This document shows positions 3,416 to 61,932 of a stretch of 64,000 nt of DNA, piece after piece. A program made the translations under genes and the position numbers. How positions within the stretch are numbered: the first letter of the stretch is position 1; every line of letters starts with the position of its first letter. Source of the stretch: Patescibacteria group bacterium (GTDB lineage: Bacteria; Patescibacteriota; Minisyncoccia; Moranbacterales; GWC2-37-73); NCBI GenBank assembly GCA_036391995.1, contig DASVYU010000015.1, positions 350 to 64,349 on the forward strand, read 5' to 3'. A model generated the notes under the pieces. It did not search any database. It had not been told where the DNA came from and saw only the letters and a program-made list of their open reading frames with translations.

Positions 3416-4099
3416 CTATATCCAGCCTTTCTTTTCTAATCCAGCTCTGGCTGCTTCACGCTGTGCATCCTGTTTGGAATTTCCTTCCCCCTCAGCAATC
3501 AATTCATCGCCCAGATACACGCCCATAATAAAATGCTTGTCATGATCAGGACCCCATTCCTTAAGTACACGATAGGACGGTGTTTGTTTGCTCATCTCCT
3601 GAGCCTTTTCTTGGAAATAACTCTTAGGATCAAGATAAAGCTTCTTGTCCAGGATCTCTTGCAGTCTTGTGGCTACATTTTCCAAAACGAATTTTTTAGC
3701 CACTTCATAGCCTTGATCCAAATAAGTCGCTCCTATGATGGCTTCCATGGCATTTGCCAGTAGATATTGCCTAGCGCGGCCGGTGTCTTTTGCTTCACCG
3801 CGGCTCATGAGTAGATATTTTTCTACTCCCAGATCCTGCGCGACTTTAGCCAACATTTCTCCATTCACCAATGCGCTGCGCCAACTTGTAAGTTCACCTT
3901 CCGGATTCTTATAATTATTGTAAAGATGTTCCGTAATGATGAGTTCCAAAACAGCATCTCCCAGAAACTCCAAGCGCTCATTGTGCTCGAGCTTGTAGTC
4001 GCGATTCTCATTCAAATAGCTGCGATGTGTCACGGCTTGCTGCAGCAATTCGATGTTGCTGAATTCTACGCCAATCTTCTTGGCCAATGAATTTATCAT
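3416..4099 (-). CDS. rnc: ribonuclease III
   Basis: 227 aa. RNase III signature ERLEFLGDAVLELIITEHLY plus a C-terminal dsRBD. Confidence 0.9.
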   Translation of the reverse strand: MINSLAKKIGVEFSNIELLQQAVTHRSYLNENRDYKLEHNERLEFLGDAVLELIITEHLYNNYKNPEGELTSWRSALVNGEMLAKVAQDLGVEKYLLMSRGEAKDTGRARQYLLANAMEAIIGATYLDQGYEVAKKFVLENVATRLQEILDKKLYLDPKSYFQEKAQEMSKQTPSYRVLKEWGPDHDKHFIMGVYLGDELIAEGEGNSKQDAQREAARAGLEKKGWI

Positions 4100-26900: not shown

Positions 26901-26906
26901 GTTTTG

Positions 26907-26980
26907 TGGGCTTACCAAGATTCGAACTTGGGACCTCGTCATTATCAGTGACGCGCTCTAACCAACTGAGCTATAAGCCC
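26907..26980 (-). tRNA. tRNA-Ile (anticodon GAT), no encoded CCA
   Basis: gggcttatagctcagttggttagagcgcgtcaCTGATAAtgacgaggtcccaagttcgaatcttggtaagcccA. The full cloverleaf folds by hand, with discriminator A. Confidence 0.9.
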
Positions 26981-26998
26981 TTGAATGGGCACTTTTTG

Positions 26999-27071
26999 TG
27001 GACCGGACAGGACTCGAACCCGCTACCTCCTCAGTGCAAATGAGGCGCTCTACCAGGTGAGCTACCGGCCC
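26999..27071 (-). tRNA. tRNA-Ala (anticodon TGC), no encoded CCA
   Basis: gggccggtagctcacctggtagagcgcctcaTTTGCACtgaggaggtagcgggttcgagtcctgtccggtccA. The G3:U70 identity pair is present. Confidence 0.9.
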
Positions 27072-55428: not shown

Positions 55429-58338
55429 TTATCGCTTGATGGCTATCCAAACATTCTCGCCATCTATTGTAAATTCCTTAGCAAGGTCAGCACTTTCGTT
55501 TTTTCCCTCATCCAAGCTATCAGAAAGCGTTTCTTTGCGGATAAGGTCGCCGAATTTGGCAAACACTTCCAGCATTCCATTATACCAGATATTGATGCGA
55601 TTGTCAACATCATATCCGGCTTCCTTGCGCATCTCCTGGATATGACGGATGATCTCCCGCGCCTTGCCTTCCATGATCAGATCTTTGCTAAGCTCGGTAT
55701 CCAGAACCACATTCGCTTCTTGGGCAGTGTCAACGACGACCTCCTTCACATTCAACTCCTCCTTGATGATGTCGGTCAATTCTTCGCCGAAAGATTCCTT
55801 GATTGAAACCTTAGCCAAAGGCTGGCGCACTTTGACCTTAGCCACAGCTCTTAGCTGCAATCCCTCGCTGACGACTTCGCGCACCTTGCGCATGTCATCA
55901 TTAAGCAAGCCGTCGATATGTGTGCGATCCCCTGTCGGCAGATCCTCCAAGTGCACCGATTCTTTGCCGGTAAGGTTCTTGAATATCTCTTCCGCAACAA
56001 ACGGTGTGAACGGCGCCATCAGCTTAGAAAGCGTCACCAGCACGTGGTGCAGGGTTGCATAAGCTTCGTTCTTGTCAGTGTCATTCTCACTCTTCCAGAA
56101 ACGCTTGCGCGACCTTCTCACATACCAATTAGAAAGATCATCCACGAAGCGCGGGAAAAGACGGGCCGCGCGATTGAGCTCATATTTTTCCATAGCATCA
56201 TGATAATTCTCAATCAGAGAATTGAGTTCGGAAAGGATCCAGCGATCCAGCAGATTGTTGGCTGCGGAATGCTTGAATTTCTCCTCATGTTCCCATTTGT
56301 CGATATTGGCATAGAGAACAAAGAAAGAATAGCTGTTCCAAAGCATGCGCATCATTCCGCTGACCAGCTGCGCCACATCCTTTTCGGAGAAGTTTAGATT
56401 CTGCGCTGCCACCACAGGCGAAGACATGAGATAGAAGCGCAATACATCCGCTCCGTATTTGTCGAAAACCAGAGTGGGATCAGGATAATTATTCAAGCGC
56501 TTGCTCATCTTTTTCCCATCTTCTGCCAGCACGATGCCATTTACAATCACATGATCGAAAGCCGGAGAACTCTTGAGCGCAGTCGCAATCACATGCAGAT
56601 AATAGAACCAAGCGCGAGTCTGATCCACGCCTTCCGCGATGAAATCAGCCGGAAAGCCTTGCTCGAATTTCTCACTGTTCTCGAAAGGATAATGCAGCTG
56701 CGCATATGGCATGGAACCGCTATCAAACCAGGTATCCAAAACATCAGGCACTCTTCTCATTTCGCCGCCGCATTTGTCGCAAGCGAAAACGATCTTATCC
56801 ACGACATGCTTGTGCAGATCCGTTACTTCCTGTCCGCTAGCTGCGCCAAGTTCTGCCACAGAGCCGAAAACTTTCGTCTCTCCACATTCACATCTCCAGA
56901 TCGGCATGACTGAAGCCCAGAAGCGCTGACGACTGATGGACCAGTCGCGTGCACCGGAAAGCCATTTGCCGAAGCGCCCTTCTTTGATGTGTTCAGGCGA
57001 CCAATGGATCTTATGCGCCAATTCCAAAGCCTCCGGCTTAATGTCGGTCACTTTCACGAACCATGATGACGTCGCGTAGTTTATGAGCGGCGTGTCGCAT
57101 CTCCAGCAGTGCGGATAGCTGTGTTCGTATTTCTCCTTGGCAAAAAGCAAACCGTTCTTGGCCAGATATTTGATGATTTCCACATCGGTCGTGGTGTGAT
57201 CGCCTTTAGGTTTCACGTGCAAACCTGCGAATTCCCCAGCTTCCTCCTTGATCACGCCATTCATGCCAACATGCTGCACGAATGGCAGATTATCGCTCTG
57301 TCCCAATTTCAAGTCATCTTCACCGAAAGCTGGTGCGATATGCACCACGCCTGTACCATCCTCAGTTGTCACGAAATCAGCTCCATATACTTTCCAACCT
57401 CTTTCGAAATTCTCGATCGAAGGTTTGGCATAATAATCAAACAGCGGCTTGTATGCTTTGCCAATAAGCTCAGACCCCTTAACTTCTTTGGTTATGTTTA
57501 TTTTCTTGTCCTTGAAAAGTTCATTTGCGCGATCTTTGGCCACAACAAATATCTCATCTTTGAATTCTCCGTCCTTCTCCACATTCACCGTTTCCACATA
57601 AACATAGTCGATATCAAAGCCTACTGCCAAGGCCACATTCCCGATCAGTGTCCAAGGCGTCGTCGTCCAAGCCAGAATGGAAACACCCGGTTCATCCACG
57701 AGTTCGAATTTGGCAATGGCTGACAAATCTTTCACATCCATATAGCCCTCGCTGACTTCCTGCTGCGAAAGCGTCGTCTCGCAGCGCGGACAAACATGCA
57801 TGGAGCGATAGCCTTCGTAGATCAGCCCTTTGTCCCAGAGCTGCTTGAATACCCACCACACCGATTCCATGTATGGCAGATCCATGGTCTTGTAGGAATT
57901 CTCCATGTCAGCCCAACGTCCCAAGCGATTAATCACTATTTTCCAATCATCCACATATTGCAAGACTTTCGAGCGGCACAGCTCGTTGAATTTTTCCACC
58001 CCCAATTTCTCGATGTCGCTCTTGGCCACTGAACCCAATTCCTTTTCCACGATGTTCTCGATCGGCAAACCATGGCAATCCCAACCCCATTTCCTTTCCA
58101 CCTGGAAACCGCGCATGGTCCAATAGCGCGGCACCACATCTTTCATGGTCGAAGCCACGATATGCCCATAATGAGGCATGCCGGTTGCAAACGGCGGACC
58201 ATCGAAGAAAGAATAGCGTTGCGCATCCTTCCTGTTCTCTATGGATTTCTCGAATATCTTGTTCTCGTTCCAGAATTTCAGCACTTCTTCTTCCATTTTC
58301 GGAAGACTTTGTTTGGGATCTACTTTTTTGAATGCCAT
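55429..58338 (-). CDS. ileS: isoleucine--tRNA ligase (type 2, eukaryote-like)
   Basis: 969 aa. FFDGPPFATGMPHYGHIVA HIGH and KMSKR motifs. Confidence 0.95.
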   Translation of the reverse strand: MAFKKVDPKQSLPKMEEEVLKFWNENKIFEKSIENRKDAQRYSFFDGPPFATGMPHYGHIVASTMKDVVPRYWTMRGFQVERKWGWDCHGLPIENIVEKELGSVAKSDIEKLGVEKFNELCRSKVLQYVDDWKIVINRLGRWADMENSYKTMDLPYMESVWWVFKQLWDKGLIYEGYRSMHVCPRCETTLSQQEVSEGYMDVKDLSAIAKFELVDEPGVSILAWTTTPWTLIGNVALAVGFDIDYVYVETVNVEKDGEFKDEIFVVAKDRANELFKDKKINITKEVKGSELIGKAYKPLFDYYAKPSIENFERGWKVYGADFVTTEDGTGVVHIAPAFGEDDLKLGQSDNLPFVQHVGMNGVIKEEAGEFAGLHVKPKGDHTTTDVEIIKYLAKNGLLFAKEKYEHSYPHCWRCDTPLINYATSSWFVKVTDIKPEALELAHKIHWSPEHIKEGRFGKWLSGARDWSISRQRFWASVMPIWRCECGETKVFGSVAELGAASGQEVTDLHKHVVDKIVFACDKCGGEMRRVPDVLDTWFDSGSMPYAQLHYPFENSEKFEQGFPADFIAEGVDQTRAWFYYLHVIATALKSSPAFDHVIVNGIVLAEDGKKMSKRLNNYPDPTLVFDKYGADVLRFYLMSSPVVAAQNLNFSEKDVAQLVSGMMRMLWNSYSFFVLYANIDKWEHEEKFKHSAANNLLDRWILSELNSLIENYHDAMEKYELNRAARLFPRFVDDLSNWYVRRSRKRFWKSENDTDKNEAYATLHHVLVTLSKLMAPFTPFVAEEIFKNLTGKESVHLEDLPTGDRTHIDGLLNDDMRKVREVVSEGLQLRAVAKVKVRQPLAKVSIKESFGEELTDIIKEELNVKEVVVDTAQEANVVLDTELSKDLIMEGKAREIIRHIQEMRKEAGYDVDNRINIWYNGMLEVFAKFGDLIRKETLSDSLDEGKNESADLAKEFTIDGENVWIAIKR

Positions 58339-58350
58339 ATGATTTTCTTC

Positions 58351-58764
58351 TTATTTTTTAATACTAACAAAATCGTTTAATGCAAGCTTGGTAATCCTTG
58401 TAATTTTAGGATTATTTAAAAAATTTTCAGCAGTATCTTCAATAATAGCCTGCCCTTCATGTAGCACTAAGAAATTCTTGGCTACATTTTTTACAACAAA
58501 CACATGTATATTGTGTTCAACACCGTCTAATTCAATTGTTTTAAGGTAATCATTTAATTTATAAAACTCATGTCCAGACAATTCTAGCTCTAGCTCTTCA
58601 TTTAGCTCTCGTTCCAATGCCTGCATCTCGTTTTCACTACCCTCAACAGCACCACCAAACATGGCAATCCTGCCAGGATTCAATATCTTGGCGTTGTCAT
58701 CTTTATGTTGCAAAAGAATCTTGCCTTCTTTAGTTATAAGCAAAGCATGGCTAGCATTTAGCAT
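58351..58764 (-). CDS. NUDIX hydrolase
   Basis: 137 aa. Canonical Nudix box GGAVEGSENEMQALERELNEELEL. Only 12 nt upstream of ileS, same strand. Confidence 0.8.
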   Translation of the reverse strand: MLNASHALLITKEGKILLQHKDDNAKILNPGRIAMFGGAVEGSENEMQALERELNEELELELSGHEFYKLNDYLKTIELDGVEHNIHVFVVKNVAKNFLVLHEGQAIIEDTAENFLNNPKITRITKLALNDFVSIKK

Positions 58765-58782: not shown

Positions 58783-59008
58783 AAAAAACGCCCTTATTCA
58801 GCATAAGGACGCCTTGAAAGCGTGGTACCACCTTAATTTAGCTTTTAGCTTCTAGCTTTTAGCTTTCAGGAATCCCCCCAAAAGCTAACGCGGCTAGCAG
58901 CTACAAGCTCTCATTTGCGGCTGTTACGGGCCTGCCCGTCAGAGTCTAATTTCCCGAAGGATTTCTTTCTGCAGCTCGGGAGTGATAGCTCCGTCATCGC
59001 TTTTGATA
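58783..59008 (-). promoter_or_regulatory. T-box riboswitch leader (Ile-type) controlling the nudix-ileS operon
   Basis: Minus strand: the T-box sequence aaauuaaggUGGUACCacgc, then antiterminator pairing acgc/gcgu and aagg/ccuu, mutually exclusive with the terminator ggcguccuu-augcugaa-uaagggcg-uuuuuu. AUC triplets lie in the upstream stem-loop region (gagcuAUCAcu and gaaAUCcuu). A TTTACA-17-TAGTAT promoter sits at about 59016-59044. Confidence 0.75.
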
Positions 59009-59018
59009 TATCCAAATA

Positions 59019-60188
59019 CTACTGCTTTTTGAAACTTTTGTAAATTCCCACGATTTCGCGCGCTGTCTTGTCCCAATCGAACTTCTTGGCTTGTGCCAAT
59101 CCCAATGAGCGGTAACGATTGCGCAGCGATTCGTCTTCGGCAAATTTGCTCATGGCTGATACCATATCATTCACGTCGCGCGGATTAACGAAATGCGCGG
59201 CACTGTCAGCGATTTCAGGCATGGAAGCCACATCTGAAACGATGGCTGGCGTCTGGGTCGCGAAAGCTTCCAGCACTGTCATCCCAAATCCTTCGTGCAA
59301 CGTCGGCATGATGAAGAATTCAGCTTTGCGGAAAAGCGGCACCAATTCATCCCCGATCACATAACCCGTAAAAACAACATCTTTAGCCAGTCCCAGATTC
59401 TTGATCATCTGCACATATTGCTTAGTAGCCCAGCCGCGCTTGCCAGCCAGCACCAACTGATAGTCGAATTTCCCGTTGTTCTTCTTTTTCTGCTCAGCTT
59501 TGAATCTTGCAAAAGCTTCCAATAATCTGGCAATATTTTTAGACGGCTCCAATGTTCCCAAGAACAAGATATACTTTTTCTCTATGCCATATTTTCCCAG
59601 CACTTTAGCCACATCAGATTCCGGTTCTTCAAAGAAGCGCTCATCCAATCCGCTATACACTACCTGGATCAATTCCGAAGGGATAGAGAGGAATTTCTCC
59701 ACATCCTTTTTGAGCGACTCGGAAACAGCCACGACCTTATCGGCTTTCTTGGCCATCAGGCGCATGACAGCTTTGTCGCGAGCCCTTTTCACAGGCGGCA
59801 ATTCCTTCGGGATGCGCATAGGCGCCATGTCATGGAAAGTCACAACCAGGTTGCCGCGATAACTCAAAGGTATGCGATTAAGTGAGGATGTGGCATGCAG
59901 CACGTCCAAATTCTCTTTTTGGAGCGTAGCCAGACCCAGGATCTCATTATAGGCTCCCGGCAGATATTTCTTGTAGTCGGAAAAAGGATAAAACTTGATC
60001 TTCACATTAGGACGCGAGAACTTTTTGACATCCTTTTCGCGCACGCGGAAGTCGAAGAACAGCACGTATTCGTTCTCCGTGTCATTTTTCAGAAGATGCC
60101 TGATAAGCTGGTATGTGTAGTGCCCCACGCCGATAGCATCCCCCTTTTCGGGGTTCAGGATCGAGCGGGCGTCAATTCCGATTCTCAT
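59019..60188 (-). CDS. glycosyltransferase family 4 (GT-B, group 1)
   Basis: 389 aa. EGFGMTVLEAFATQTPAIVSDVASMPEI matches the E-X7-E region. Confidence 0.8.
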   Translation of the reverse strand: MRIGIDARSILNPEKGDAIGVGHYTYQLIRHLLKNDTENEYVLFFDFRVREKDVKKFSRPNVKIKFYPFSDYKKYLPGAYNEILGLATLQKENLDVLHATSSLNRIPLSYRGNLVVTFHDMAPMRIPKELPPVKRARDKAVMRLMAKKADKVVAVSESLKKDVEKFLSIPSELIQVVYSGLDERFFEEPESDVAKVLGKYGIEKKYILFLGTLEPSKNIARLLEAFARFKAEQKKKNNGKFDYQLVLAGKRGWATKQYVQMIKNLGLAKDVVFTGYVIGDELVPLFRKAEFFIMPTLHEGFGMTVLEAFATQTPAIVSDVASMPEIADSAAHFVNPRDVNDMVSAMSKFAEDESLRNRYRSLGLAQAKKFDWDKTAREIVGIYKSFKKQ

Positions 60189-60282: not shown

Positions 60283-61932
60283 TCACATCTTTTCAGGAGC
60301 GTCTACTCCCACAAGTCTAAGCGTTTCAGCTAACACTATTCTAGCAGCTTCCACCAAAGAAAGTCTAGCTTTCGTAAGCTCAGGATTTTCCTCATCGATC
60401 ACGCGGCAAGCGTCATAGAAAGAGTGGAATTTATCAGCCAGAGAAATCGCATAATGCGGCAATTTGTGCACAGCATAGGTCTCAGAAACTTCCGCCACCA
60501 GTTCTGGAAACTTGTCCAATTCCTTGATCAGGTTCAACTCCCTCTCATGCTGCAATAAAGATAAATCTACATCTTGTTTGGAAATTGGAAATTGGAAATT
60601 GGAAATTCCAGCTTCTCGAGCCTTCTCGAGAATGCTGGATATGCGAGCGTGGGCATATTGGACATAGAAAACAGGATTTTTCTGCGAGCGTTCCGCTGCC
60701 AAACCCATATCGAAATTCATATGCGTGTCCGGCGAATACATCAGGAAGAAAAATCTGGTGACATCATGTCCCAATTCATCAATCAGATCATCAATGTAGA
60801 CAACATTGCCTGCGCGCTTACTCATTCTGACTTCCTTGCCGTCTTTCATGAGACGCACCAACTGCACAATATTGAAACGTACTCTTTCCGGCGCAACACC
60901 CAAGGCTTGAGCGGCAGCAGAAAAACGCACGATGTACCCATGATGATCAGCTCCCCAAGTTTCAACAAGATCAGTGAAACCTCTTTCCACTTTATTGAGA
61001 ATATATCCGCAATCAGAAGCGAAATATGTCTTCTGACCATTGGCTTTCACCAGAACTCTGTCCTTGTCATCTCCAAAATCAGTGGTTCTCAGCCACAATG
61101 CCCCTTCTTCTTCAAAGGTCAAACCTTTTTTGCTGAGAATTTCAATAGCCCTGTCTACAAAACCTTCATCACACAGAGATTTTTCAGATATCCATTCATC
61201 AAAAGAGATTTGCATTTTTTCCGCAGCAGTCTTTTTGATGAAATTTTCCAAAATATATTCAGCCGCTTTTTCTCCAACCTCTCTAACATCTTTGCCATCT
61301 GCCATCTCAGCATTGAGCTTGTCTATATATTCGCCGCCATAAACAGCTTCCTCATCTTTCAAGACGCTGTGACCAAGCTTCATGACTTGTTCACCAGCAT
61401 CGTTTACGTAATATTCATTCGCAACTTCAAAGCCTGCTTTTCTGAGCACGCGCGAAAGAGAATCACCGAAAAATCCGCCGCGACCATTGCCTAAATGCAT
61501 AGGTCCGGTCGGATTGGCTGAAATGAATTCATTGTTAATTTTAACACCACTACCAATCTCATTGCTGCCGAATTTTTCCTTTTCAGAGTTTATTTTCTCA
61601 ACAACATCCTGCAAATATTTCCTAGAAAGATAGAAATTGATATGTCCTGGCGGTGCAATTTCAATTTTTTCAATATACGAATCTTTCAACTTTTCACTTT
61701 CAACTTTCAGCTCATTGGCTATTTCCAAAGGATTTTTTTTGAGCTGCTTGGACAATATCATGGCCACATTGGTCGTGTAATCGCCGAAAGCATCATTCTT
61801 GGGATGATCCACGATTATTTCAGCAATTTCAAAAGCAGGCCAATTATTGGCTTTTTTTGCCTCAAACAAGGCATTTTTTATAATTTCTTGTATAGTATTT
61901 TTCATACTGGTATTATTCCATATTGATGCCAT
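60283..61932 (-). CDS. argS: arginine--tRNA ligase
   Basis: 549 aa. HIGH-region PTGPMHLGNGRGG, and a DALR anticodon-binding C-terminus ending ...PEKM. Confidence 0.9.
   Translation of the reverse strand: MASIWNNTSMKNTIQEIIKNALFEAKKANNWPAFEIAEIIVDHPKNDAFGDYTTNVAMILSKQLKKNPLEIANELKVESEKLKDSYIEKIEIAPPGHINFYLSRKYLQDVVEKINSEKEKFGSNEIGSGVKINNEFISANPTGPMHLGNGRGGFFGDSLSRVLRKAGFEVANEYYVNDAGEQVMKLGHSVLKDEEAVYGGEYIDKLNAEMADGKDVREVGEKAAEYILENFIKKTAAEKMQISFDEWISEKSLCDEGFVDRAIEILSKKGLTFEEEGALWLRTTDFGDDKDRVLVKANGQKTYFASDCGYILNKVERGFTDLVETWGADHHGYIVRFSAAAQALGVAPERVRFNIVQLVRLMKDGKEVRMSKRAGNVVYIDDLIDELGHDVTRFFFLMYSPDTHMNFDMGLAAERSQKNPVFYVQYAHARISSILEKAREAGISNFQFPISKQDVDLSLLQHERELNLIKELDKFPELVAEVSETYAVHKLPHYAISLADKFHSFYDACRVIDEENPELTKARLSLVEAARIVLAETLRLVGVDAPEKM

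What the first reader, a model, noticed from the sequence alone, without database searches (positions are those of the whole stretch)
58783..59044. Canonical T-box riboswitch (Ile specifier) upstream of a nudix-ileS operon, with its own promoter
Read on the minus strand, the 254-bp spacer between the GT4 gene and the nudix gene contains the hallmark T-box sequence AAUUAAGGUGGUACCACGC (consensus AAUUAGGGUGGNACCGCG). The 7-nt UGGUACC bulge is flanked by two short helices, ACGC/GCGU and AAGG/CCUU, and forms the antiterminator. Its 3' strand (GGCGUCCUU) is also the 5' strand of a strong terminator hairpin (ggcguccuuaugcugaauaagggcg) followed by U6, 9 nt before the nudix ATG. The bulge N is U, which would pair with the discriminator A73 of the tRNA-Ile(GAU) encoded in this same window. 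AUC triplets occur in the upstream stem region (gagcuAUCAcu and gaaAUCcuu), and a TTTACA-17-TAGTAT promoter lies about 225 nt upstream of the terminator. The leader also contains (AAAGCUA)n tandem repeats. T-box elements are characteristic of Firmicutes, with scattered occurrences in other phyla. To my knowledge they have not been characterised in a CPR/Patescibacteria-like genome, nor has a Nudix hydrolase been reported as the first cistron of a T-box-regulated ileS operon.
Basis: partly seen in the sequence, partly recalled or inferred. Interest (0 to 1): 0.8.

Follow-up and report, generated by a model that had tools for sequence, protein, structure and literature searches.

The report
Minimal terminator-type Ile T-box in CPR
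The leader in front of the nudix-ileS operon of this ultrasmall (Moranbacteria/CPR) bacterium is a real tRNA-Ile-sensing T-box riboswitch, but a stripped-down one that lacks the usual tRNA-elbow docking arm yet still appears to act by transcription termination, a combination the field treats as the exception and that standard annotation misses.

Summary
Window 59044-58783 (minus strand) carries a promoter-like site, a T-box leader and an intrinsic terminator ahead of nudix-ileS. "Canonical" is wrong. Rfam T-box scores 52.9 bits, below its 93-bit gathering score, because about 70 nt of Stem I are absent. Stem I is a K-turn, a 4-bp helix and a 6-nt terminal loop CU-AUC-A. This matches the "ultrashort" Stem I known from actinobacterial ileS T-boxes, which act on translation. 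Stem II with its S-turn, the IIA/B pseudoknot, a 70-nt repeat-built Stem III, the UGGU bulge and the antiterminator are all present.

The expression platform is a 13-bp hairpin plus U6 that re-uses the antiterminator's 3' strand. It contains no Shine-Dalgarno sequence.

My own covariance models find the same architecture upstream of ileS in 38 of 80 Patescibacteria loci. Covariation is strong, AUC sits in the loop in all 39 leaders, terminators follow 28 of 34 antiterminators against 8 of 170 controls, and the promoter position is conserved. Rfam at its gathering score finds none of them.

The Nudix first cistron is a local insertion, not a conserved feature. Three related leaders with an ACC (Thr) loop precede thrS. 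No paper in the searchable library links T-boxes with CPR.

Verdict: a new variant of a known kind.

The parts
59039..59044 (-). -35-like hexamer TTTACA, inside the 3' end of the GT4 gene
   Evidence: Promoter scan. A comparable -35/-10 pair is found in 29 of 35 related leaders against 56 of 350 control windows.
59016..59021 (-). -10-like hexamer TAGTAT with a 17-nt spacer. It overlaps the GT4 stop codon TAG (59021-59019). The predicted transcription start is about 59009, just before Stem I.
   Evidence: Across relatives the -10 ends a median of 6 nt before the leader model start, and the spacer is 17 nt in 27 of 29.
58973..59001 (-). Ultrashort Stem I. It comprises the C-stem AGC/GCU, a K-turn (bulge GAU, tandem G.A/A.G), the 4-bp helix GGAG/CUCC and the 6-nt terminal loop CUAUCA.
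   Evidence: The Rfam alignment deletes 76 Stem I model positions. Model R1 scores 96.6 bits. The C-stem and specifier helix covary.
58984..58986 (-). Specifier codon AUC (Ile), followed by the conserved purine A58983. It is complementary to anticodon GAU.
   Evidence: AUC sits in the terminal or specifier loop in all 39 leaders, while the flanking helix covaries.
58939..58972 (-). Stem II with the S-turn internal loop (AAGAAA / AUUAGA) and the upper helix UCC-UUCG-GGA
   Evidence: Every pair of the base and upper helices shows compensatory changes.
58919..58938 (-). Stem IIA/B pseudoknot CGGGCAGGCCCGUAACAGCC (IIA is CGG/CCG; IIB is GGC with GCC)
   Evidence: IIA is 100% paired. IIB is 88% paired against 13-53% when partners are slid, with A-U, G-C, C-G and G-U at the variable pair.
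58910..58918 (-). Linker ending in the purine-A-G motif (GAG) before Stem III
   Evidence: Relatives have AAG or GAG here. The role of this motif is described in PMC11297988.
58840..58909 (-). Elongated Stem III, a 70-nt hairpin of 28 bp (-34 kcal/mol). Its 3' strand is the (AAAGCUA)n tandem repeat.
   Evidence: Close relatives have similarly long, repeat-built Stem IIIs with different repeat units.
58805..58834 (-). T-box sequence (58834-58821) and antiterminator. Helix A1 is AAGG/CCUU, the bulge is UGGUACC (UGGU 58830-58827 pairs with tRNA 3' ACCA), and helix A2 is ACGC/GCGU.
   Evidence: Covariation: 99.6% paired and 45 double-sided changes against 13.5 in shuffles. Fold energy is -4.5 kcal/mol.
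58783..58815 (-). Intrinsic terminator, a 13-bp hairpin (58815-58785) whose 5' arm re-uses the antiterminator's 3' strand, with U6 at 58788-58783
   Evidence: -15.5 kcal/mol. Terminators follow 28 of 34 related antiterminators against 8 of 170 controls, and 26 overlap the antiterminator.
58351..58764 (-). First cistron, a 137-aa Nudix hydrolase with a near-intact Nudix box
   Evidence: Pfam NUDIX at 31.6 bits. Translation. Not conserved at this position in relatives.
55429..58338 (-). ileS, a type-2 isoleucyl-tRNA synthetase of 969 aa. It starts 12 nt after the nudix stop and is the conserved regulated gene.
   Evidence: Pfam. PDB comparison gives 811 bits to IleRS2 against 327 bits to IleRS1. 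The closest relatives are Moraniibacteriota MAGs at 76-78% identity.
26906..26980 (-). tRNA-Ile(GAU), the predicted ligand. Its discriminator is A73 and CCA is not encoded.

Best explanation
This is a functional tRNA-Ile-responsive T-box riboswitch that controls the nudix-ileS (probably also recO) transcript by transcription attenuation. It has a minimal decoding module.

Proposed sequence of events:
1. Transcription starts about 59009 from its own sigma-70-like promoter.
2. The first 85 nt fold into an ultrashort Stem I, which presents AUC-A in a terminal loop, together with Stem II (S-turn) and the IIA/B pseudoknot. These form the anticodon-binding groove described for actinobacterial ileS T-boxes. 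No tRNA-elbow platform is encoded.
3. A 70-nt Stem III follows, then the T-box bulge.
4. If the bound tRNA-Ile(GAU) is uncharged, its 3' ACCA pairs with UGGU (58830-58827) and stabilises the weak antiterminator (-4.5 kcal/mol). RNA polymerase then reads through into nudix-ileS.
5. If the tRNA is charged or absent, the stronger terminator (-15.5 kcal/mol plus U6) forms and transcription stops at about 58783.

Shown here: the sequence and structure elements, their covariation, the conserved Specifier, terminator, promoter and gene association, and the matching tRNA.

Inferred: tRNA binding, the read-out, and that regulation is co-transcriptional. I also infer, more weakly, that the long Stem III compensates for the missing elbow contact. 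It could do so by strengthening tRNA binding, or by giving polymerase extra transcription time between the decoding domain and the terminator.
For: - Rfam T-box matches its full length at E = 6.3e-11, with the Stem I distal region deleted.
- Decoding-domain model R1 finds one hit per locus, always upstream of ileS on the same strand, in the window and 38 of 80 Patescibacteria loci.
- In that alignment 96.2% of cells are paired against 25-46% when partners are slid. There are 188 double-sided changes against 54 +/- 7 in shuffles (0 of 500 shuffles reach it), and 16 of 19 pairs show compensatory change.
- AUC is in the loop in 39 of 39 leaders while the helix varies.
- The IIB pseudoknot is supported.
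- Antiterminator helices are 99.6% paired and covary.
- A terminator plus U-tract follows 28 of 34 antiterminators against 8 of 170 controls, and 26 overlap the antiterminator's 3' strand.
- The terminator is more stable than the antiterminator, as in known T-boxes.
- tRNA-Ile(GAU) with A73 is in the window.
- A promoter-like site occurs in 29 of 35 leaders against 56 of 350 controls, at a fixed distance.
- The terminator helix contains no Shine-Dalgarno sequence or start codon. The 18 nt between U6 and the AUG are A/U only, apart from one C.
- Published work shows that an ultrashort Stem I with Stem II and IIA/B suffices to bind tRNA-Ile (PMC7583486; 10.1101/2023.02.28.530422). The same preprint shows that lengthening Stem III by 11 bp tightens binding about 6-fold.
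Against: - No experiment has been done. The organism is uncultured and there are no transcript data.
- The Rfam score is below the curated gathering score.
- The field's kinetic argument says transcriptional T-boxes need the elbow platform for fast tRNA capture (PMC7583486 sec. 6.2). A terminator-type switch without it may be leaky or slow, or may need an unknown helper.
- My covariation counts use alignments fitted to my own models, which bias them toward the structure. The slid-partner controls mitigate this.
- Six of 34 relatives have only complex terminator-like folds, and 2 have terminators that do not overlap the antiterminator.
- The promoter hexamers lie partly in the GT4 coding sequence, so part of their conservation among close relatives could be protein-coding.
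Confidence: 0.85

Rival explanations
1. The element is a translational T-box like the actinobacterial ultrashort ileS leaders. On this reading the 3' hairpin acts as a sequestrator of the ribosome-binding site, not as a transcription terminator.
For: The decoding module is of the ultrashort type. The literature describes that type as translational (10.1101/2023.02.28.530422; PMC7583486; PMC11297988).
Against: - The hairpin is followed immediately by U6, and by a U-run of at least 5 in nearly all relatives.
- It ends 21 nt upstream of the AUG.
- Neither the helix nor the spacer contains a purine-rich Shine-Dalgarno sequence.
- Where relatives do have an SD-like AAGGA (L005, L023, L028), it lies downstream of the U-tract, outside the helix.
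Confidence: 0.05
2. The element is a decayed, non-functional T-box remnant. Stem I was lost during genome reduction, and the 3' hairpin now serves only as a constitutive attenuator or as the terminator of the upstream GT4 gene.
For: The score is below Rfam's gathering score. CPR genomes are reduced. The platform considered essential for transcriptional T-boxes is missing.
Against: - A relic would not keep AUC invariant in 39 leaders spanning IleRS identities down to about 51%.
- It would not keep every helix paired through compensatory changes.
- It would not keep a promoter at a fixed distance.
- It would not keep the terminator overlapping the antiterminator.
- A constitutive terminator in front of the essential single-copy ileS would be deleterious.
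Confidence: 0.04
3. The element is a T-box that needs an additional, unidentified partner to work co-transcriptionally without the elbow platform. That partner could be a protein such as a K-turn-binding L7Ae-type protein, or in many relatives the extra hairpin inserted beside the specifier hairpin. In effect this would be a mechanistically distinct subclass.
For: - The K-turn is conserved.
- 17 of 39 leaders carry an additional hairpin inside the Stem I junction.
- L023, L028 and L029 have a rearranged discriminator.
- The kinetic argument applies.
Against: The window's own leader has no extra hairpin. Actinobacterial ultrashort leaders bind tRNA without any cofactor in vitro. Nothing in the window points to a partner.
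Confidence: 0.06

Closest known systems
Ultrashort (US) Stem I ileS T-box riboswitches of Actinobacteria (M. smegmatis, M. tuberculosis, N. farcinica ileS; Sherwood, Grundy & Henkin 2015; structures 6UFG, 6UFM)
   Same: - The Specifier AUC sits in the terminal loop of a very short Stem I, with no distal double-T-loop platform.
- Stem II with an S-turn and the IIA/B pseudoknot are present.
- The purine-A-G linker, Stem III, the UGGU bulge and tRNA-Ile as ligand are shared.
- The regulated gene is ileS, here of the type-2 (eukaryote-like) kind (literature).
   Different: - The expression platform is an intrinsic terminator plus U-tract, not an SD sequestrator.
- The host is Patescibacteria/CPR, not Actinobacteria.
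- Stem III is greatly elongated by tandem repeats in this clade.
- The same design is also used for thrS in related organisms.
- I could not read Sherwood 2015, so I cannot exclude that it mentions a few actinobacterial US leaders with terminators.
Canonical transcriptional T-box leaders of Firmicutes (Rfam RF00230; e.g. B. subtilis tyrS, S. aureus ileS)
   Same: - The T-box 14-mer, the 7-nt bulge, and the antiterminator/terminator competition with the terminator more stable.
- A K-turn at the Stem I base, and a Specifier followed by a purine.
- Stem II and IIA/B.
- The position upstream of an aminoacyl-tRNA synthetase gene, with its own promoter.
   Different: About 70 nt of Stem I are absent. 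This includes the specifier internal loop's S-turn context, the AG bulge and the distal loop that stack on the tRNA elbow. The score is 52.9 bits against the 93-bit gathering score. Rfam at that threshold finds 0 of 13 related leaders.
glyQS T-boxes (minimal transcriptional T-boxes lacking Stem II and IIA/B)
   Same: Both are naturally reduced T-boxes that act by transcription termination.
   Different: glyQS leaders keep the long Stem I with the elbow platform and drop Stem II. This element does the reverse: it keeps Stem II and IIA/B and drops the platform.

Membership tests
T-box leader (broad family, RF00230) | Conserved T-box sequence with a UGGN bulge inside an antiterminator helix | tested here: met
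   AAGGUGGUACCACG at 58834-58821. Helices A1 and A2 are 99.6% paired with compensatory changes across 35 sequences.
T-box leader (broad family, RF00230) | Specifier codon in Stem I that matches the amino acid of the regulated gene, followed by a purine | tested here: met
   AUC-A at 58986-58983 upstream of ileS. AUC is present in 39 of 39 related leaders.
T-box leader (broad family, RF00230) | UGGN position N complementary to the discriminator base of the cognate tRNA | tested here: met
   N is U. The window's tRNA-Ile(GAU) has A73.
T-box leader (broad family, RF00230) | Mutually exclusive terminator and antiterminator folds, with the terminator more stable | tested here: met
   The folds share the strand 58815-58805. 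Energies are -15.5 and -4.5 kcal/mol. 26 of 34 relatives show the same overlap.
T-box leader (broad family, RF00230) | Long Stem I with a distal platform (AG bulge plus distal loop, interdigitated T-loops) that docks the tRNA elbow | tested here: not met
   76 model positions are replaced by 6 nt in the Rfam alignment. The predicted transcription start at about 59009 leaves no room for them.
T-box leader (broad family, RF00230) | Score at or above Rfam's gathering score (93 bits) | tested here: not met
   52.9 bits. No hit in the whole-window gathering scan or in 13 related loci.
T-box leader (broad family, RF00230) | Antitermination dependent on uncharged tRNA | not testable with these tools
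   This needs in vitro transcription or reporter assays.
Ultrashort (US) ileS T-box class | Specifier in the terminal loop of a short Stem I, with the platform absent | tested here: met
   GGAG-CUAUCA-CUCC. The helix covaries (GC, CG, AU and UA at each pair) while AUC stays fixed. The class definition is taken from 10.1101/2023.02.28.530422.
Ultrashort (US) ileS T-box class | Stem II with an S-turn and the IIA/B pseudoknot present | tested here: met
Ultrashort (US) ileS T-box class | Regulates ileS and responds to tRNA-Ile | tested here: met
   All 39 hits lie upstream of ileS. Response to tRNA-Ile is inferred from the AUC/GAU and UGGU/ACCA matches.
Ultrashort (US) ileS T-box class | Translational control through an SD sequestrator and anti-sequestrator | tested here: not met
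   The platform is a hairpin followed by U6. There is no SD sequence in the helix or spacer.
Ultrashort (US) ileS T-box class | Sequence-level homology to characterised actinobacterial leaders (for example a hit with TBDB's translational_ILE.cm) | not tested

The most novel reading that the evidence does not exclude
Patescibacteria (CPR) carry their own widespread lineage of minimal T-boxes, with an ultrashort Stem I and the codon in a terminal loop, coupled to intrinsic terminators. They are used for at least ileS and thrS, and current Rfam-based annotation does not detect them. If they really switch co-transcriptionally without any tRNA-elbow contact, the accepted kinetic rule that transcriptional T-boxes need the platform does not hold. 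In that case elongated Stem III hairpins or inserted hairpins may be the compensating device. The shared ultrashort-Stem-I and type-2-IleRS unit in Actinobacteria and Patescibacteria would also bear on the origin of T-boxes, either as an ancestral minimal form or through transfer between the two phyla.
Probability: 0.45. Interest if true: 0.78.

Novelty: new variant of a known kind. Interest (0 to 1): 0.62.

Why it matters
1. It gives a natural counter-example to a mechanistic generalisation in the riboswitch field. Reviews argue that terminator-type T-boxes need the Stem I platform to capture tRNA fast enough, and that ultrashort Stem I is tolerated only where regulation is translational (PMC7583486). 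About 39 independent natural sequences with a terminator and no platform make that idea directly testable in vitro.

2. It is, to my knowledge and within the searchable literature, the first concrete cis-regulatory RNA switch described for Patescibacteria. Regulation in this group is called 'virtually unknown' (PMC11665869). It shows that these amino-acid-auxotrophic epibionts monitor tRNA-Ile charging.

3. It exposes an annotation blind spot. Rfam's gathering score misses the whole class, and TBDB's short-Stem-I model was run only on Actinobacteria.

4. The thrS examples suggest the ultrashort design is more general than 'ileS only'.

5. Compact, self-contained tRNA-sensing terminators of about 220 nt are attractive parts for synthetic biology.

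Tried and rejected
- Whole-window Rfam scan at the gathering score found no T-box. The hit appeared only in a local E-value scan.
I split it into a decoding-domain model R1 and a discriminator model R2.
- The MAFFT alignment of 15 leaders shifted the Stem I register. I used a 7-sequence subgroup as seed and let Infernal realign.
- The second AUC ('gaaAUCcuu') was rejected as a Specifier. [quoted passage not shown]
- Nudix as a conserved first cistron was rejected.
- The L071 8655-8691(-) hit with R2 (E = 0.72) was rejected as a T-box. It has no downstream ORF and no Rfam hit.
- The key primary papers were not held: Sherwood 2015 and 2018, Vitreschak 2008 and Battaglia 2019.
- I tried to extract an M. 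tuberculosis or M. smegmatis ileS leader sequence from supplements or by a full-text sequence search, and found nothing usable. No direct sequence or model comparison with actinobacterial US leaders was therefore made.
- The metagenome scan with the ThrRS fragment returned mostly distant ThrRS from other phyla with canonical T-boxes. Only L081 and L082 shared the ultrashort design.
Full report
**1. What is there**

On the minus strand, GT4 glycosyltransferase (59019-60188) is followed by a 254-nt spacer. After the spacer come a 137-aa Nudix gene (58351-58764), a 969-aa isoleucyl-tRNA synthetase (55429-58338, starting 12 nt after the nudix stop) and recO. The IleRS is the type-2, eukaryote-like kind. 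It scores 811 bits against P. megaterium IleRS2 and 751 against T. thermophilus, but 327 against S. aureus IleRS1. The closest IleRS relatives, at 76-78% identity, are Candidatus Moraniibacteriota and Parcubacteria MAGs, so the window comes from a CPR/Patescibacteria genome.

**2. Checking the observation**

- the T-box sequence and 7-nt UGGUACC bulge;
- both antiterminator helices;
- the 13-bp terminator with U6;
- the TTTACA-17-TAGTAT site;
- the 7-nt tandem repeat;
- tRNA-Ile(GAU) with A73 elsewhere in the window.

At Rfam's gathering score the window has no T-box. A local scan gives a full-length RF00230 match (model 1-219) at 52.9 bits, E = 6.3e-11, against a gathering score of 93.

The alignment explains the shortfall. 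76 consensus positions of Stem I are replaced by 6 nt. There are three minor corrections. U6 ends 18 nt before the nudix AUG, not 9. The second 'AUC' lies in Stem II. The tandem repeats are one strand of Stem III.

**3. Anatomy** (coordinates)

- Stem I (59001-58973) consists of a 3-bp C-stem, a K-turn (GAU bulge, tandem G.A), a 4-bp helix GGAG/CUCC and the terminal loop CU-AUC-A. There is no specifier internal loop, AG bulge or distal loop.
- Stem II (58972-58939) carries the S-turn (AAGAAA / AUUAGA).
- The IIA/B pseudoknot is at 58938-58919.
- A linker follows, ending in GAG.
- Stem III (58909-58840) is a 70-nt, 28-bp hairpin of -34 kcal/mol. Its 3' strand is the (AAAGCUA)n repeat.
- The T-box and antiterminator occupy 58834-58805 (-4.5 kcal/mol).
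- The terminator is at 58815-58785 (-15.5 kcal/mol), with U6.

The terminator's 5' arm is the antiterminator's 3' strand, so the two folds exclude each other. The hairpin and the 18-nt A/U-rich spacer (a single C) before the AUG contain no Shine-Dalgarno sequence.

**4. Comparative evidence**

I fetched 80 Patescibacteria ileS loci and built two covariance models.

*Decoding-domain model R1.* It finds exactly one hit per locus, always upstream of ileS on the same strand, in the window and 38 loci. That is 38 of the 74 loci with enough upstream sequence. On that alignment:
- 96.2% of cells are paired, against 25-46% when partners are slid;
- there are 188 double-sided changes against 54 +/- 7 in shuffles;
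- 16 of 19 pairs show compensatory change.

The specifier helix changes freely (GGAG/CUCC, GAGG/CCUC, CCCG/CGGG, UCUGA/UCAGA, CUUUAG/CUAAAG and others). The loop keeps AUC in all 39 leaders, usually followed by A. The IIB pseudoknot is 88% paired against 13-53% when slid.

*Discriminator model R2.* It finds 34 ileS leaders. In the window it hits only 58805-58842. Helices A1 and A2 are 99.6% paired, with 45 double-sided changes against 13.5 +/- 3 in shuffles.

*Terminators and promoters.* A terminator-like hairpin plus U-tract follows 28 of 34 antiterminators, against 8 of 170 control windows. 26 of them re-use the antiterminator strand. Most of the remaining six still fold into more complex hairpins in front of a U-run. 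A -35/-10 pair precedes 29 of 35 leaders, against 56 of 350 controls. The spacer is 17 nt in 27 of 29, and the -10 ends a median of 6 nt before the leader. Transcription therefore starts right at Stem I, and no longer Stem I can be hidden upstream.

**5. Mechanism**

The best-supported reading is a tRNA-Ile-sensing transcription attenuator:
1. [quoted passage not shown]
2. The uncharged 3' end ACCA pairs with UGGU and stabilises the antiterminator.
3. Otherwise the terminator forms.

The structural roles of these elements are established for actinobacterial ileS T-boxes (PMC7583486; PMC11297988; 10.1101/2023.02.28.530422). Here they are inferred from conservation.

The rival readings are translational control, a dead relic and dependence on a cofactor. 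They are weighed in the structured sections of this report, and none fits the U-tracts, the absence of an SD in the helix, or the pervasive covariation.

**6. Comparison with what is known**

The decoding half matches the 'ultrashort (US)' class. The Henkin and Su groups define it as translational T-boxes with the Specifier in the terminal loop, all regulating ileS. The expression half matches canonical transcriptional T-boxes.

[quoted passage not shown] 6.2). This element, and about 38 relatives, combine what that argument keeps apart.

One clue concerns Stem III. In the window's clade, Stem III plus linker is 67-102 nt, against 14-38 nt in the other leaders. Adding 11 bp to Stem III of the M. 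smegmatis leader raised tRNA affinity about 6-fold. A long Stem III would also delay synthesis of the terminator. Both ideas are inference.

**7. Novelty and its limits**

- No paper in the searchable library combines T-box with Patescibacteria, CPR or Parcubacteria.
- A 2024 perspective on Patescibacteria mentions riboswitches only as engineering tools.
- Rfam's gathering score finds 0 of 13 positive loci. In an E-value scan it misses the divergent ileS leaders in L036, L059 and L071 altogether.
- TBDB ran its hairpin-loop-specifier model only on Actinobacteria.

The limits are as follows. I could not read Sherwood 2015, which may mention some actinobacterial US leaders with terminators. Subscription literature is not searchable. 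Everything here is computational. I therefore rate the finding as a new variant of a known kind, of real interest to T-box and CPR specialists. It is not categorically new.

**8. The Nudix point**

The Nudix first cistron is not a conserved feature. 28 of 39 leaders directly precede ileS. The closest relatives with upstream sequence (L002, L003, L012) have no nudix. The other intervening ORFs are HIT-domain proteins (L021, L024), a Trp-repressor-like protein (L017), 23S-IVP proteins (L020, L030), one unrelated Nudix (L026) and four unknowns. Nudix and HIT are both nucleotide hydrolase families and both recur next to an aminoacyl-tRNA synthetase gene. That is curious, but I did not pursue it.

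Noticed in passing
L059:600-830 (minus strand); L081:~1240-1470; L082:~1290-1500: Ultrashort-Stem-I T-boxes with an ACC (Thr) codon plus A in the terminal loop: GAGGCGG-CUACCAA-CCGCCU, CUGGGG-UUACCAG-CCACAG and CCGUGG-CCACCAA-CUACGG. Each has a UGGA bulge and a terminator plus U-run, upstream of a short ThrRS (Pfam tRNA_SAD confirmed for the L059 ORF only). The literature says all US-class T-boxes regulate ileS. Rfam scores the L059 element at 39 bits.
   Followed up: partly
L021:3575-3997, L024:3566-3991 (HIT); window 58351-58764, L026:3538-3981 (Nudix): Small nucleotide-hydrolase genes of two unrelated families (HIT and Nudix) have been inserted independently between the T-box and ileS in different lineages. 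The two Nudix proteins are not orthologous. This may point to a link with Ap4A or aminoacyl-adenylate by-products of the synthetase, but that is untested.
   Followed up: partly
L003, L004, L009, L012, L020, L022, L023, L024, L028, L030, L031, L036, L049, L050, L053, L076, L078 (Stem I region): In 17 of 39 leaders an extra hairpin of variable sequence is inserted between the specifier hairpin and the 3' strand of the Stem I C-stem, which makes a three-way junction. L020 and L030 instead have a small hairpin above an internal specifier loop ('intermediate' Stem I). The function is unknown. It could be a substitute tRNA contact.
   Followed up: no
L023:~3900-3990, L028:~3890-3990, L029:~3890-3990: This is a variant discriminator. 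The bulge UGGUACC is kept but the flanking helices differ (..GC/UU-UGGUACC-UC..). A GCACCU...AGGUGU helix followed by a U-run encloses the whole antiterminator region, which suggests a different switching topology.
   Followed up: no
window 58840-58909; L002, L003, L005, L006, L009, L012 Stem III regions: In the window's clade, Stem III is expanded to about 70-100 nt by short tandem repeats whose unit differs between genomes (AAGCUA-type, UACAUAAUAC-type, GCGAUAU-type). Each is mirrored by complementary repeats on the other strand. The helix seems to grow by slippage while staying paired.
   Followed up: partly
L004, L008-L010, L016, L018-L021, L024-L026, L038, L042-L044 and others (record titles): Many MAGs whose IleRS and ileS leaders are clearly patescibacterial carry record titles such as 'uncultured Bdellovibrionales', 'uncultured Gammaproteobacteria' or 'uncultured Candidatus Saccharibacteria' (binchicken co-assemblies). 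These are probably mislabelled taxonomic placeholders.
   Followed up: no
window 26906-27071 (minus strand): tRNA-Ala(UGC) and tRNA-Ile(GAU) lie 18 nt apart, and neither encodes CCA. This is the pair usually found in the 16S-23S spacer. I did not check for flanking rRNA, and the Rfam gathering scan of the window found no rRNA.
   Followed up: no
window 60283-61932 (minus strand): An arginyl-tRNA synthetase gene lies just upstream of GT4. Neither my T-box models nor Rfam find a T-box in front of it, so ileS is the only T-box-controlled synthetase gene in this 64-kb window.
   Followed up: yes
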